From the NCBI RefSeq assembly GCF_006345805.1, contig NW_021836691.1:1-23027 (forward strand): a stretch of 23,027 nucleotides of DNA, in the 5' to 3' direction. The DNA comes from Octopus sinensis. Lineage: Eukaryota. Position numbers and translations under genes: made by a program. Below are positions 3,177 to 22,344 of the stretch, one piece after another; position 1 is the stretch's first letter, and each line of letters begins with the position of its first letter. The notes under the pieces were generated by a model that saw only the letters and a list, made by a program, of their open reading frames with translations, did not search any database and was not told the DNA's origin.

Positions 3177-3254
3177 ATTACAATGAAAAATTCGGACGCA
3201 TGAATGTTAATATTCTTAACTTATTACACCTGGAAAAGTACAGAACAAGATTCG

Positions 3255-3326
3255 TACAGTAGAATTTGCCTATTACGTCACCAGTAAAGGAAACTAAAAA
3301 GTACTTAAAATTAAAATTCTACTGTA
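3255..3326. mobile_element. Mini Tc1/pogo-type MITE remnant (TA-CAGTAGAATT...AATTCTACTG-TA)
   Basis: Perfect 12-bp inverted ends tacagtagaatt/aattctactgta including TA flanks. Confidence 0.6.
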
Positions 3327-3574
3327 CTTAAAATATTGCAACCGAAAATAACATTTTAAAAATTTACTATATTTTATAAAAACAAAAATTATAAGAACAT
3401 TACTGGGTTTTTCCAAAAATACGCCCATCTGATTTTAAGCCGATGAGTTTATATACAGACATTCCTGTCATGTATAGCCCCAGCAAGTTTTATTATTTTC
3501 AGAAAAAAAAAAAAATTATTTGGGCTTAGATTTGGAAAAAGCCGTATTTTAAAAATGAAATAATATAAAATTAA

Positions 3575-3679
3575 TACAGTAAATTTCGCCTCATTAGTTA
3601 TCCCTAGAAGAAAATTGAAAGTGACGAATTAGGTGAAATAACGAATTAGCCAAAGACGAACTAGACTAATTCTACTGTA
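3575..3679. mobile_element. Tc1/pogo-type MITE remnant with repeated subterminal motif
   Basis: tacagtaaattt...aattctactgta ends; internal gacgaattagg/aacgaattagc/gacgaactaga repeats. Confidence 0.65.
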
Positions 3680-4123
3680 TTAATGTCAACTAATAAATTT
3701 TACTTATGATTTATTTATCAAATTACTTTACTTATGATTTATTTGTCAGATTAATTAATGTGGACGAATTGACTGAGCATGTAGCTTATCTGAAACCGTT
3801 CTACAGCAATCAATGATTATTTTGTAATGGCATTTCAATTTAAGTGAAAAAAATCTTGCGCAATATTATTTAGAACTTCATATTTTATTGTTTGTACTTG
3901 CTACAACTAAATAAAATGACTATTTTAATTGTATACATCAAAAGATGTGACTTAAAAAGATTTTTTTTTTGTTTGAGTTTATTTTTGATTATTATTGTAC
4001 CATGTTTTTAAAGATTCACTTGTTTTCTAGATTCATATAATAAATAAAATAAATTATCTCAAATTTACCTAATATAATATATTTTAATTTTAAAAATGTT
4101 ATTCTCGGATGCAATATTTTAAG

Positions 4124-4195
4124 TACAGTAGAATTTTAATTTTCAGTACTTTTTAGTTTTCTTTAGAGGTGATGAATTAGGCAAATTTTACTGTA
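4124..4195. mobile_element. Inverted counterpart of the 3255-3326 mini-MITE
   Basis: tacagtagaatt...aaattttactgta within the right arm. Confidence 0.6.
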
Positions 4196-5241
4196 GAAAC
4201 CTTATTCTGTACTTCTCCTGGTGTAATAACTTTAAGAATATTAACTTGCATTCACTCGCATTTTTCATTGCAATCCACATTTTTCCAGGCAATGCAATAA
4301 AACTAATAAATATTCTTTTGTTAAAAAATATTTGAATTATTTTTCATTGTTGATGATTGAATTAAAATAAGAATTTTATGTTGTGTTTTCTTTTAATCGT
4401 CACATATTTTTTCTTAAATTCTAAAAATAAGAACAAGTTTTCTGGACAGAGTTTCGTTGCATTGGCTAATATAAAAATGACTTTAAAAAGCCAATGCATC
4501 CATCGTAAAGCACGAAGAGTTACCTGCCCTTTTGCTTTTTCTGAACAGCATTACTAAAAACTTTCAAGTCTGCCCATTGAAAGAAAGAAACAATAATTTT
4601 GTTTCATTAAATTTTGAGGAATAATTTTTTTTTAAATGAAGCTTTCATATATATGCTAAAATTCTATATTATAATCCAGTTTTCATAAACTAATTTAAAA
4701 CTGCAATTTGTATAAATAAAATATAATCCACATATTTAAAAATGCAAAAATAGCCAAAACATCTACCGTAAGGTAGGAGGATCCACCTGCCCTTGTAAGG
4801 CAAAGTTAGTTTGTTAGTCGAAATTCATGCAAAAACATATAATAATAATAATAAAGCCTGCAATTCAGCTACAGTTCTTGTCAATTTGCCTGAAAAAAAA
4901 ATCTGAATTCTGCTCCTCCGAAAATCCAATCATACTATCTGAAAGCAAAACCCTTGTCAATTTACCCTAAGAAATAATAATCTAAGTTCTGCTACTCTTA
5001 ATATTGAATTAAAGTTTAAAAGCAAACAAAAAACTTATTGAAATTTTAGAAGTTCTTACAACCTTGATCTTCGTAATTCTTTGTTTTCGTTTGTTTAATA
5101 AAAATTCCTCCTCGTATAATGATTTTGCTTTCATTTTGTGATAGACAACTAAAATGCAGAAATTGTCAGCTCTTAAATTCTGTTTTCTGATTAGATGAAA
5201 ATGATTAAACTTTAAACTTCAGTAATATTTTTTTGCAATAA

Positions 5242-5345: not shown

Positions 5346-5897
5346 GTGTTTACGATGAACAGCAGAGAAGAGTTCACTTGTCATTAATTGTTGTCAACTT
5401 GCCACCTCTCTTCTTAAAACTACGTATTTGTCACACTAACCTTTGTTTCCCTTCATGGACGTTTTAAAAGTTACTTAAGTGTATGTGCGTGTATGTGTGT
5501 GCATTGTGTGTGTGTGTGCGTGTATTTACGAAAGTATGCATGCTGTGTCATGTGTATATCCCTGAAGTCGATTTTAGGCGTTATTTTCCCCTTTTTGACT
5601 TCACATATTTGAAATGTCAACTTTTTTTCTACTGAACCAAATTCGAAGTTTTGTAGTTCAATATAGATTAGGAGGTGACCAATCTAAAAATATATAAACA
5701 TCATCAAATTTGGTAAAAACCTGAATTAGTGACAAAGAGTAGAAGTGGTCGCGAGTAAGTAAATGTTGACCTTTAGAATATTATTCACACACGGCAGTGT
5801 GTGAATGATATTTATTATAATATAGTGCATTCTATGAATATGAGATAGATCTTTGCAAGATACCTAAATACTGAATTGAATCAAACATTTTGCAATA

Positions 5898-6091
5898 TTG
5901 GTTTCCAATTTTGGCAGATGGCCATCGAATCCGGAGGGGGCGGAAGCTGATTACATCGACCTCAGTGCGTAGCTGATACCCATTTTAACAGATAAAAGGC
6001 AAAGACGACCTTGGCGCATTTTGAACTCAGAATGTAGAGACAGGCGCGATTTCACCATGCGTGTTAACGACTCTACCAGCTCGTCGTCTTA
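5898..6091 (-). mobile_element. tRNA-derived SINE, family A (diverged)
   Basis: Minus strand: A-box-like gagctggtagagtcg, B-box-like gagttcaaa, then gtcgtctttgcctttta; homologous to 14370-14586. Confidence 0.8.
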
Positions 6092-9674: not shown

Positions 9675-9791
9675 GTGTGTGTGTGTGTGAGGAAAAAGGA
9701 CAACAAAAACCAAGGCAGGACGAGTATCTCAAGTCATTTAGAATATTTAATTAGAATAAGGTGAATTTAAAGTAATTAATTAATTATTGGA

Positions 9792-9875
9792 TCTTACAGC
9801 TGTTTCGCTGTTTCTGGGATATGCTAAGTGATAGGTTAGCGTCTCCATACATTGGATATTCCGTCGTCAGAGACA
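9792..9875 (-). ncRNA. Type I hammerhead ribozyme motif (left arm of palindrome 1)
   Basis: Minus strand: tgtct CTGACGA cggaatat...atatccca gaaacagc GAAA cagctg TA aga; intact core boxes, palindromic stem III acagctgt, GUA site; 8-bp duplication and shortened stem I. Confidence 0.65.
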
Positions 9876-9976
9876 AGGTGAGTATATACTGCTCTACTGT
9901 TTTACTCTTTATTATTTCTATTTTATTCTTTTACAAACTGTGAATTCCCTGTCTAGAACTTTCTACATACTCACAT

Positions 9977-10054
9977 TGTCTCTGTTGACGGAATATCCAG
10001 TGTATGGAGATGCTAACCTATCACTTCACATATCCCAGAAACAGTTGTAAGACA
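9977..10054 (+). ncRNA. Type I hammerhead ribozyme motif, core-mutated (right arm of palindrome 1)
   Basis: tgtct CTGTTGA cggaatat...atatccca GAAA cagttg TA agaca; 5-bp stem I tgtct/agaca; A6 replaced by U. Confidence 0.6.
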
Positions 10055-10166
10055 TCCAATAATTAACTAATTACTCCAAATTCACCTTACTCTAATTAAA
10101 TATTCTAAATGACTTTGAGATACTCGTGCTGCCTTGGTTTTTGTTATCCTTTTTACCTCTAATATA

Positions 10167-10214
10167 ACTCGGAAACCTACTCAGAAACTCGGAAACCTTA
10201 CTAGGAAACCTACT
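10167..10214. repeat. Short tandem repeat of ~actcggaaacct (4 degenerate units)
   Basis: actcggaaacct actcagaa actcggaaacctt actaggaaacct act. Confidence 0.75.
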
Positions 10215-10325
10215 ACGAATCTGTAGCTCTAGACTTAGCTGTGAACTTGGAACCTAACGGATGACCAATTATAGCACTTACACAGTGTACCTATTCGTTT
10301 AGATCACCAGTGAACTAACTCTTCA

Positions 10326-16373: not shown

Positions 16374-16409
<36 letters not shown>

Positions 16410-16415
16410 TATATA
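16302..16415. repeat. (TACA)n(TA)n
   Basis: Direct reading. Confidence 0.95.
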
Positions 16416-16417
16416 AT

Positions 16418-16930
16418 TTTGGGACAAGAACGCAAAACATCCAGAAAGGGACAACAAAAGATGCAGATAGACGATACAAAGAAAACAAGGACGGGTTATT
16501 CGGAGTTTTCTTTCTTCAGTCGAGTTCCAGATTATCTTTGCAATTTCGGCTGGTTATACTCCAGATTGCTCCGATCTGGCCAGCTCCAAGGAAAAAAGTA
16601 AGCTAAGAGCATTAGATTCATTAGAAGAAAGTAGCGAATGTATACGAAAACAAGGACGGAAAAAGAAAACGAAGACTGTTACACAAATACACATAACAGG
16701 ATATAACAACAGGTGTCTTTCGACTAAGGACGAATTAAATTAAGCTGGCGTGTGTGGAAGTAAAGCCTTACAGCAGGGATAGAAGATTTTACAGGCACAG
16801 GGATGTTGCTCGGATGGCAGCCGAGTCAAGAAAGAAAGGTCAGGCTTGGCCGAAAACCGGTCACGTGGGGAGAGAAGAGTGAGAGGTAGAGGCCGAGGTA
16901 GAGGGACAGAAGAAATAAGGAGGGGTGAGA
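16418..16930 (-). mobile_element. Interspersed repeat family D (possibly Penelope-terminal-repeat-derived)
   Basis: Reverse complement of 16420-16616 aligns to 22036-22205 (ctaatgctc.tagctta...gctggcc.gatcggagc.atct...cagccgaaattgc...gactgaaga...cccgtcc...gttttgcgttcttgtccca); right boundary and strand uncertain. Confidence 0.65.

Positions 16931-20680: not shown

Positions 20681-20760
<80 letters not shown>
20529..20760. repeat. (TATG)n,(TG)n,(CT)n,(TA)n compound microsatellite
   Basis: Direct reading. Confidence 0.96.
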
Positions 20761-20761
<1 letters not shown>

Positions 20762-20836
20762 GAGTGTGTGGACAAATGAAAGAAGGGCACTCAATCAATT
20801 TATTGGGAGTTATATGTATAGATCAAAACAGTTTGA

Positions 20837-20901
20837 TTCAAATTCGTTGGTACTTTTGAGTTTCAAGCATAATGCTAGTCGTCAGCCATTTTGACTTTGA
20901 A
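20837..20901 (-). ncRNA. Type I hammerhead ribozyme motif (left arm of palindrome 2)
   Basis: Minus strand: ttcaaagtc aaaa tgg CTGACGA ct agca tta tgct t GAAA ctcaaaag TA cca ac gaatttgaa; one stem III and one stem I mismatch. Confidence 0.68.
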
Positions 20902-21563
20902 TGACAGAAGTTGATTGTTCTTACTGTATGGTGGGATGCGATTGGTCGACGAAGGTCACGCGGTGTCGTGGTTTGATGTTGCTATATGGGTTACAGTTAG
21001 TTGGAAAATACCGCTTGGTGAATCGGAAATTGACTACGTGGAGGACAGGAAATAGACTACGTGGCAATTAAGAAATCGGGCAGCTTGTTGGGGGAGTTGT
21101 AAGAGGGCGGCATGTGCAAGTATATAGTTTTGTATGTGGGTGAGTAGACACGCTCGTATAGTTTTGCGTGCATGTGTATAGTGATGTGAGCGTGTGCATT
21201 TGTATATGGGCGCGCACGTGTGTATGTATGTGTGTGCAGACGTGCGCGTGCGTGCTCTTATACAGATGTGCACGCTCGCATCAATATACACATGCACGCA
21301 AAACTATATGTGCCTGTCTACTCACTCACATATAGAACTATATACTTGCACATGCCACCTCTTCCTAGTCCCCCCAACAACGTGACTGATTTCCTAATCG
21401 CCACATAGTCTATTTCCTGTCCTCTATGTCGTCAATTTCCTGTTCACCATGCAGTATTTTCCAACTAATTGCTACCCATATACCAACGTCAAATCACGAC
21501 ACCACCTGACCTTCCTCGACCAATCGCAGCCCACCTTACGGTAATAACAATCAACTTCTGTTG

Positions 21564-21628
21564 TTCAAATTCAAAATGGCTGACGACTAGCATCACGCTT
21601 GAAACTCAAGAGTACCAACGAATTTGAA
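21564..21628 (+). ncRNA. Type I hammerhead ribozyme motif (right arm of palindrome 2), best-preserved copy
   Basis: ttcaaattc aaaa tgg CTGACGA(21580-86) ct agc atcac gct t GAAA(21601-04) ctc aa gag TA cca ac gaatttgaa: stem I 3 bp + internal loop + 9 bp, stem III actc/gagt, predicted GUA cleavage after 21614. Confidence 0.78.
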
Positions 21629-21641
21629 TCAAACTGTTTTA

Positions 21642-21642
<1 letters not shown>

Positions 21643-21718
<76 letters not shown>

Positions 21719-21763
21719 CCTACCTACCTACCTACCTATCTACCTACCTACGTACCTACATAC

Positions 21764-21832
<69 letters not shown>

Positions 21833-21877
21833 CATCCATCCATCCATCCATCCATCCATCCATCCATCCATCCATCC

Positions 21878-21957
<80 letters not shown>

Positions 21958-22016
21958 GTCTGTCTGTCTATCTATCTATATCTATATCTATATCTATATC
22001 TATATCTATATATATA
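21643..22016. repeat. (TCTA)n/(CCTA)n/(TCCA)n/(TATATC)n compound microsatellite
   Basis: Direct reading. Confidence 0.97.
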
Positions 22017-22210
22017 TGCTCGTAGCTTAGTTTTTCTAATGCTCGTAGCTTAGTTTTTCCTTGGGGCTGGCCGGATCGGAGCGATCTCAAGATTAATCAG
22101 CCGAAATTGCTACGATGATCCGGTTCTTGACTGAAGATTGAGGGCTTCGAATGTCCCGTCCGTGTTTTTTGTATCGTCTTCTATGTGTTTTGCGTTCTTG
22201 TCCCAGTCTG
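22016..22210 (+). mobile_element. Interspersed repeat family D, second copy, inverted relative to 16418-16616
   Basis: Alignment as above; begins with tandem duplication atgctcgtagcttagtttttc (22016-22036, 22039-22059). Confidence 0.7.
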
Positions 22211-22344
22211 TACTTTTCTACATATAATAATTATATATATATACACACATACATATACCATCTACCTGTGTCGTTTTCCATTATGTCTTGTCCTTATTCT
22301 ATCTTCGTCTATCGCTTGTTTATGTTTTCGCCATCATCCTTTAC

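What the first reader, a model, noticed from the sequence alone, without database searches (positions are those of the whole stretch)
20818..21647. 830-bp DNA palindrome with an outward-facing hammerhead ribozyme at each end
Seen: two ~400-bp arms with a ~20-nt loop. Near each outer end is a full type I hammerhead layout (CUGACGA, GAAA, GUA, three stems, stem I with an internal loop). Established: type I hammerheads with very short stem III occur in Penelope-like element terminal repeats and retrozymes, and Penelope elements form inverted terminal arrangements. Inference: this is an ORF-less fold-back retroelement. A transcript from either strand would carry one sense ribozyme at its 3' end, competing with a ~400-bp hairpin that would sequester it.
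Basis: partly seen in the sequence, partly recalled or inferred. Interest (0 to 1): 0.8.

Follow-up and report, generated by a model that had tools for sequence, protein, structure and literature searches.

The report
Mirror-image stub of Penelope-like retrotransposon
This palindrome is two head-to-head copies of the ribozyme-bearing end of an old jumping gene of the Penelope type, a layout these elements leave at many sites in this genome, likely built during a single insertion and likely dead rather than a self-copying fold-back element.

Summary
The palindrome and both type I hammerheads are real. The arms (20818-21218, 21247-21647) are 348/402 identical; a hammerhead descriptor finds exactly these two motifs in the window. 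Each arm is the 3' terminal repeat (pLTR) of an old, high-copy Penelope-like retrotransposon family. Other copies join the same repeat to reverse-transcriptase and GIY-YIG remnants with Hydra-clade motifs. The left arm carries the 60-nt Penelope 'tail' (20760-20819); the right arm lacks it. The palindrome is not a replicating unit: copies occur as single arms or as head-to-head pairs of 0.2-3.5 kb with different centres, nearly always with one tail. This layout is published for Penelope elements. The arms have decayed like unlinked copies, and in a read-through RNA the hairpin would suppress the ribozyme fold by about 89 kcal/mol. Extra value: a young sister family with about 2,400 identical hammerheads shows one tail in 25 of 25 resolved pairs, both arms from one source, and arm ends piling up to an edge 17 nt before the catalytic core. 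This favours two-ended priming and makes the Penelope integration mechanism testable. Verdict: new member of a known kind.

The parts
20760..20819 (-). Penelope 'tail' (start of the element's 5' UTR), present on the left arm only
   Evidence: Shared by many copies after the pLTR end; runs straight into the ORF in L102 and L098
20820..21220 (-). Left arm: 5'-truncated pLTR/3' end of a Hydra-type Penelope-like element (family A)
   Evidence: 40 differences in 390 columns from the column-wise commonest letter of other copies
20837..20902 (-). Left type I hammerhead; core intact, one mismatch each in stem III and outer stem I; predicted cut after 20851
21215..21246 (.). Head-to-head junction: self-complementary CACGTG, then about 27 nt of family sequence that belong to the right arm only
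   Evidence: crossed by short-read contigs with 0 differences
21217..21644 (+). Right arm: 5'-truncated pLTR/3' end of the same family, without tail
   Evidence: 29 differences in 390 columns
21563..21628 (+). Right type I hammerhead: stem I with internal loop, CUGACGA at 21580, 3-bp stem II, GAAA, self-complementary stem III, GUA; predicted cut after 21614
   Evidence: its 41-nt core occurs exactly 17 times in the genome, reversed control 0
20683..20758 (.). (TC)n and (TA)n microsatellites at the left end (likely target)
21642..22003 (.). (ATCT)n microsatellite at the right end; no target-site duplication can be read

Best explanation
The palindrome is two 5'-truncated copies of the hammerhead-bearing terminal repeat of an old Penelope-like retrotransposon joined head to head, one with the element's tail and one without, likely made in one insertion event and likely inert since. 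Shown: family identity, ORF-bearing relatives, tail asymmetry, variable centres, neutral decay. Inferred mechanism: the element's GIY-YIG endonuclease cuts both strands in a (TA)n tract; each free end primes reverse transcription on the element's RNA, one at the tail-distal and one at the tail-proximal start site, on RNA not yet cut by the hammerhead; both cDNAs here stopped about 335-365 nt upstream of the catalytic core and were joined at their 3' ends through a few self-complementary bases. The ribozymes face outward only because each arm reads towards the element's 3' end. The hammerhead is a passenger at this locus: constrained in the active parent, predicted to need dimer or protein help, and predicted to be masked by the hairpin in any read-through transcript.
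For: Family: 1,362 candidates, 40 scored, 84-89% identity. ORF link: GIY-YIG and RT remnants directly upstream of the arm; hammerhead, tail, then ORF with RWK and DKT motifs in L102/L098. Architecture, family A: 14 of 48 loci have a head-to-head pair, 0 tail-to-tail, spans 651-3465 bp, 13 of 14 with exactly one tail (p=0.0009 against 0.5), 7 of 14 with ORF remnants between the arms; in 41 hammerhead-selected loci 19 have a partner within 1.5 kb, 17 of 19 with clearly one tail. Young sister family B (intact 727-aa ORF; 2,397 exact hammerhead matches): 22 head-to-head pairs against 1 tail-to-tail among the first 100 listed matches (counted by eye); 25 of 25 resolved junctions in 41 loci have one tailed and one tail-less arm, 12 of 25 overlap by 1-4 nt; both arms agree at a polymorphic site in 25 of 25 pairs called on both arms (chance 1.8e-5). 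Where arms differ by 10 nt or more at the centre, the tailed arm is longer in 7 and shorter in 5, so often neither arm is a subset of the other; the window is of the second kind. Decay: window arms 85% identical against 82.5+-2.5% for 554 unlinked pairs. Literature: inverted 5'-truncated copy and one-sided tail are typical of PLEs (PMC8557442, passages; PMC3846280, passages); a PLE protein cuts and extends both strands and starts RT at two sites that bound the tail, on uncleaved RNA (PMC11167929, parts 1-2 of 4).
Against: The mechanism is inferred from genome anatomy; no intermediate was observed. A hairpin intermediate followed by endonuclease trimming of one tail could give the same products. 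No target-site duplication is readable. 34 of 48 loci show no full partner arm (some have mini-inversions missed by that filter; others may have decayed or be single-ended). One pair has no tail (L148) and one has two (L225). 8 of 25 family B junctions carry 1-40 extra bases. The in vitro work is on a Poseidon-clade element, not a Hydra-clade one. Clade placement rests on motifs, without a tree.
Confidence: 0.8

Rival explanations
1. Same parent element, but the mirror arm arises by self-priming: the first cDNA (or an antisense template) folds back at a short palindrome and copies itself, and the endonuclease trims the tail from one end. This is the published reading of head-to-head Penelope junctions.
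For: Junctions often sit on self-complementary words (12 of 25 overlap by 1-4 nt; CACGTG in the window); both arms share alleles; proposed in PMC3846280 (passages).
Against: A simple fold-back makes the second arm a subset of the first, yet in 5 of 12 informative family B pairs and in the window the tail-less arm is longer at the centre while the other has the tail; centre offsets reach 514-2319 nt, too long for a priming loop.
Confidence: 0.12
2. A non-autonomous fold-back retroelement that is transcribed and re-inserted as an 830-bp palindromic unit, using one terminal hammerhead per strand.
For: Similar-sized ORF-less palindromes of the family exist (651, 711, 831 bp; L259); in family B some mini-palindrome centres recur exactly.
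Against: Every long palindrome has its own centre; no second copy of this centre among 40 scored candidates; recurring mini-centres lie on self-complementary words and carry the tail on either arm; arms are no more alike than unlinked copies; 0 compensatory changes in 633 stem cells; the ribozyme fold costs about 89 kcal/mol inside the hairpin.
Confidence: 0.04
3. Two independent insertions, or a later local inversion or assembly fold-back, brought two copies together by chance.
For: The arms are 13% diverged and share only 5 derived changes in 390 columns; the family targets (TA)n, so neighbours occur.
Against: 14 head-to-head against 0 tail-to-tail pairs, with one tail in 13; no microsatellite or host DNA at the join; short-read contigs cross the centre; 13% divergence excludes a read chimera.
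Confidence: 0.04

Closest known systems
Hydra clade of C-terminal EN+ Penelope-like elements (Craig et al. 2021, PMC8557442; section 11, passages and supplement part 2 seen)
   Same: RWK and DKT motifs, CxCx5C linker, no CCHH, (TA)n targets, short type I hammerhead with a mismatch before stem II and a self-complementary stem III. Repbase Penelope-13_HM is listed with a 5'-truncated inverted copy and a hammerhead on both strands.
   Different: The hammerhead differs from that of the one cephalopod family listed (Hydra-1_Obim) and from all other rows of that table (compared by eye). The tail is 50-60 nt in this family and about 70 nt in family B, against the 30-40 bp cited.
Penelope insertions with inverted pLTR and tail in Adineta vaga (Arkhipova et al. 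2013, PMC3846280; passages seen)
   Same: Head-to-head inverted pLTR, palindromes at the junction, tail on one of the inverted pLTRs, Inr-like motif in the pLTR.
   Different: There read as self-priming on few copies; here many insertions are ORF-less stubs and the counts fit two-ended priming better.
PAc Poseidon element of Anolis (Frangieh et al. 2024, PMC11167929; parts 1-2 of 4 seen)
   Same: Hammerhead in the pLTR upstream of two RT start sites that bound the tail; AT-rich target; both strands cut and extended in vitro.
   Different: Different clade; in PAc the ORF begins inside the hammerhead, here after the tail. The parts read do not derive inverted insertions from the two start sites.
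Non-LTR retrozymes (bioRxiv 10.64898/2026.07.22.740005; part 1 of 5 seen)
   Same: ORF-less, pLTR-derived, type I hammerhead.
   Different: Retrozymes are head-to-tail tandems with two or more same-strand ribozymes; here the copies are head to head with one sense ribozyme per strand.

Membership tests
EN+ Penelope-like element | pLTR linked to an RT plus C-terminal GIY-YIG ORF | tested here: met
   Met in other copies of the family (L102 aligns to the intact family B protein at E 1e-98); the window copy itself has no ORF
EN+ Penelope-like element | [quoted passage not shown] | tested here: met
   20760-20819 on the left arm only; 13 of 14 pairs
EN+ Penelope-like element | Inverted 5'-truncated copy adjoining the 5' end | tested here: met
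EN+ Penelope-like element | Type I hammerhead in the pLTR | tested here: met
   Descriptor hits; Rfam models give none
Hydra clade PLE | RWK motif and DKT in place of DKG | tested here: met
   Translations of L098 (both motifs) and L102 (DKT); both in family B
Hydra clade PLE | CxCx5C linker; CCHH absent; CxxC and CxH around the conserved E and N | tested here: met
   Open-frame pieces of L048, L062, L063, L067
Hydra clade PLE | Insertion into (TA)n | tested here: met
   Left flank (TA)n; most copy ends run into (TA)n or related repeats
Hydra clade PLE | RT phylogeny groups with Hydra elements | not tested
   No reference proteins in session; Pfam gives no hit for the intact relative; Atlas neighbours are unnamed clusters, with GIY-YIG on at most half the members of some
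Hammerhead ribozyme (type I) | Core CUGAnGA, GAAA, UH with three stems | tested here: met
   Both arms; stem II 3-4 bp without closing G-C; the hammerhead fold is 5.1 and 3.0 kcal/mol above the predicted minimum
Hammerhead ribozyme (type I) | Self-cleavage at the predicted site | not testable with these tools
   Needs an in vitro assay
Hammerhead ribozyme (type I) | Covariation in stems | tested here: inconclusive
   0 two-sided changes, 47 broken, 15 one-sided, 571 unchanged cells in 36 family A arms, as expected of dead copies; stems keep pairing with other sequences in families B and C (by eye)
Non-LTR retrozyme | Head-to-tail tandem with two or more same-strand hammerheads | tested here: not met
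   Head-to-head here; 1 direct duplication in 48 loci
MITE or foldback DNA transposon | Fixed unit with terminal inverted repeats that recurs whole, with a target-site duplication | tested here: not met
   Variable spans and centres, solo arms, RT-linked

The most novel reading that the evidence does not exclude
Hydra-clade Penelope elements integrate by default from both ends of a double-strand cut: one cDNA starts at the far end of the tail, the other at its near end, both from one source RNA, and the two are joined head to head. The commonest template is the transcript's own 5' end, which begins 17 nt before the hammerhead core, so the genome is seeded with thousands of 200-250-bp ribozyme palindromes; the window's 830-bp palindrome is the longer product from the 3' repeat. 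A young family with intact ORFs in the same genome makes this directly testable.
Probability: 0.45. Interest if true: 0.55.

Novelty: new member of a known kind. Interest (0 to 1): 0.3.

Why it matters
The locus itself is an ordinary dead transposon stub in a published layout. Its value is as a pointer. How Penelope-like elements make inverted repeats and one-sided tails is stated as open in PMC8557442, and this genome holds a young family with intact 727-aa ORFs and about 2,400 identical hammerheads whose junctions can be read base by base. The counts here (one tail per pair, shared alleles, either arm longer, a hard edge at -17 in two families) narrow the models. Such insertions are also ready-made long hairpins if transcribed; Penelope was the heavily edited LINE-class repeat in lizard (PMC5625713, passages), though nothing here shows transcription or editing of this locus.

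Tried and rejected
Rfam: no hammerhead match on either arm at E<=10 or among the rows shown for the window; the miRNA hits are repeat artefacts below gathering scores. Pfam: nothing at threshold for the endonuclease piece or the intact relative. Expression: no RNA holder listed; two runs guessed to be RNA gave only diverged family pieces as contigs, which says nothing on expression or cleavage. A-to-I editing imprint in copies: rejected, A>G 3.6% against T>C 4.0% at non-CpG sites. Selection or gene conversion keeping the hairpin: not seen, arm identity is within the unlinked range. Unit propagation of this palindrome: no second centre; the one full-length hit, L259, is another palindrome with its own centre. 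Identity with Hydra-1_Obim: hammerheads differ. Loose ends at 21564 were not used, because the window has its own two mismatches there. The -17 Inr-like motif is not evident in family C. Lunse et al. 2017 was not held; its dimer result is cited second-hand from PMC6466107 (passages). Earlier scan notes: none in this genome or by sequence. Literature searches that found no account of two-ended priming in PLEs: 'Penelope-like + twin priming', six-term search from 2021, 'Penelope + head-to-head + self-priming' (only PMC3846280), 'Penelope + hammerhead + pseudo-LTR + transcription start'; subscription papers, unread parts of PMC11167929 and bioRxiv supplements may hold it.

Full report
Observation. 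The two arms, 20818-21218 and 21247-21647, match at 348 of 402 columns. A generic type I hammerhead descriptor finds two hits in the window, at 21580 (+) and 20885 (-), against a mean of 0.02 in 200 shuffles. Rfam does not detect them. The centre is not a designed loop: the 26-28 nt between the arms continue the right arm's family sequence, and the join lies on CACGTG at 21215-21220. Short-read contigs from two runs cross it with no difference; they may be the assembly's own sample. The window is one contig of a 2.7-Gb, microsatellite-rich animal genome; no call names the organism.

What the arm is. A 311-bp piece of the arm has 1,362 candidates in the genome; the 40 scored are 84-89% identical. 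Copies end at a fixed point after the hammerhead, and many carry a further 50-60 nt before running into (TA)n. In the window this tail lies at 20760-20819, on the left arm only. Upstream of the arm, other copies hold the end of a GIY-YIG endonuclease and, further up, reverse transcriptase. In L102 the order is hammerhead, tail, ORF, and L098 shows tail then ORF, so the tail is the start of the 5' UTR. The motifs RWK, DKT, CxCx5C, CxxC and CxH, and the lack of CCHH, match the Hydra clade as defined in PMC8557442 (section 11). The published Hydra hammerheads have the same short layout, and Penelope-13_HM is listed with an inverted 5'-truncated copy and a hammerhead on both strands (supplement). 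The sequence differs from every row there, so this is an unlisted family ('A'). No tree was built.

Is the palindrome a unit? Of 48 loci (47 extended stretches around the hits, plus the window), 14 have a head-to-head pair and none a tail-to-tail pair; spans run from 651 to 3465 bp, 7 enclose ORF remnants, and 13 have the tail on exactly one arm. That sample favours long arms and its filter missed short partners. In 41 distinct loci chosen on the hammerhead alone (16 and the first 30 of 71, 5 duplicates dropped), 19 have a partner within 1.5 kb, many as 150-250-bp mini-palindromes, 17 with clearly one tail. A search with the window's centre found no second copy among 40 scored of 299 candidates; the one full-length hit is a different palindrome. 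So inversion is common, but each one is built anew.

A young sister family as test bed. A protein search turned up family B: intact 727-aa ORFs, copies 96-99% alike, every one of four full-length loci examined with an inverted copy. L091 begins with an 880-bp palindrome with outward hammerheads, the same geometry as the window. Its hammerhead has 2,397 exact matches; among the first 100 listed I count 22 head-to-head pairs and 1 tail-to-tail within 4.1 kb. In 41 loci (first 30 hits plus 20 stretches picked from the listing, mostly because they looked paired; 9 duplicates dropped) 25 junctions were resolved: all 25 join a tailed arm to a tail-less arm; 12 overlap by 1-4 nt, 5 are blunt, 8 have 1-40 extra bases. 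At a polymorphic site both arms agree in 25 of 25 pairs called on both sides, 6 of them for the minor allele; over three sites 23 of 27 pairs agree against 728 of 1,458 unlinked pairs. Where the arms differ by 10 nt or more at the centre, the tailed arm is longer in 7 and shorter in 5.

An edge at the ribozyme. Arm 5' ends pile up between -17 and -4 relative to the C of CUGA: 30 of 50 in family B against 2 in the next 14 nt upstream, and 20 of 38 against 3 in family A (alignment ends are good to 2-3 nt). In both families position -17 is the A of a YCATTC word that resembles an initiator (consensus recalled, not from a call) and the first base of the hammerhead's long stem I. The simplest reading is that the transcript starts there and that most cDNAs primed in the 5' tail run off its end. 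This is inference; family C does not show the word. The window's arms go 335-365 nt beyond this edge, so they must come from the 3' repeat of a longer, uncut RNA.

Mechanism. Shown in the literature: a PLE protein cuts and extends both strands of AT-rich DNA, starts RT at two sites that bound the tail, and uses RNA not cut by its hammerhead (PMC11167929). Inferred here: both target ends are primed, one at each site, from one source, and the two cDNAs are joined head to head. This accounts for orientation, the single tail, shared alleles and independent arm lengths. The published self-priming model (PMC3846280) accounts for the first three only with added trimming, and fits poorly where neither arm is a subset of the other. 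It is not excluded.

The ribozyme here. Across 34 other arms the hammerhead region differs from the column's commonest letter at 91 of 2,005 non-CpG cells against 639 of 7,324 upstream, a sign of constraint in the parent lineage; cells are not independent and the search may favour this region. Among 36 arms no stem pair changes on both sides and 47 of 633 cells are broken, as in dead copies. The hammerhead fold lies 5.1 (right) and 3.0 (left) kcal/mol above the predicted minimum; the right stem III strand can pair with itself (-7.1 kcal/mol), the left no longer can. PLE hammerheads with short stem III are reported to work as dimers in tandem (PMC6466107); a head-to-head pair offers no same-strand partner. 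Forcing the fold inside the full palindrome costs about 89 kcal/mol on either strand. The arms are 85% identical, within the range of unlinked copies (82.5+-2.5%), with no A>G excess.

Verdict. Observation confirmed; interpretation partly supported. The locus is a decayed, doubly truncated insertion of a new Hydra-type Penelope family in a published layout. A second such palindrome of a third family lies at 9689-10320 in the same window, which shows how ordinary the layout is here. Three earlier AI notes from other genomes, read after my own counts, say similar things and are not counted as support. Interest 0.3, mainly for the testable integration model offered by family B.

Noticed in passing
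window 9689-10320: A second head-to-head palindrome of a third family ('C', 1,245 candidates) with a long-stem-II type I hammerhead (core intact on the left arm, decayed on the right); sequence beyond the right arm is shared with other copies and looks like the tail.
   Followed up: partly
L091-L094 (e.g. L093:2509-4689, minus strand): Young Hydra-type Penelope family B with intact 727-aa ORFs, many near-identical copies and 2,397 exact hammerhead matches; may still be active. No Pfam hit.
   Followed up: yes
L116, L117, L206 (also L164, L165): Family A mini-insertions in which the two arms are joined through the hammerhead's own stem I repeat, so the ribozyme stem serves as the joining homology.
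   Followed up: partly
L160 about 5660-5960: A near-perfect family B mini-palindrome with one tail sits in (TA)n directly upstream of a truncated family A hammerhead.
   Followed up: no
window 16404-16616 and 22035-22243: Two 75%-identical copies of another repeat with decayed CUGAAGA-type motifs, possibly a fourth hammerhead-bearing family.
   Followed up: no
window 3177-4274: About 1.1-kb AT-rich element with 200-bp terminal inverted repeats (85%), MITE-like.
   Followed up: no
many loci, e.g. L066, L067, L089, L142, L186, L189, L210, L243: At least eight further distinct type I hammerhead-like motifs in flanks of fetched loci, suggesting many Penelope families in this genome.
   Followed up: no
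L125 (L008/L019): Direct duplication of a family A arm with 903-bp period and 96% identity, including flanks; a local tandem duplication rather than a retrozyme array.
   Followed up: no
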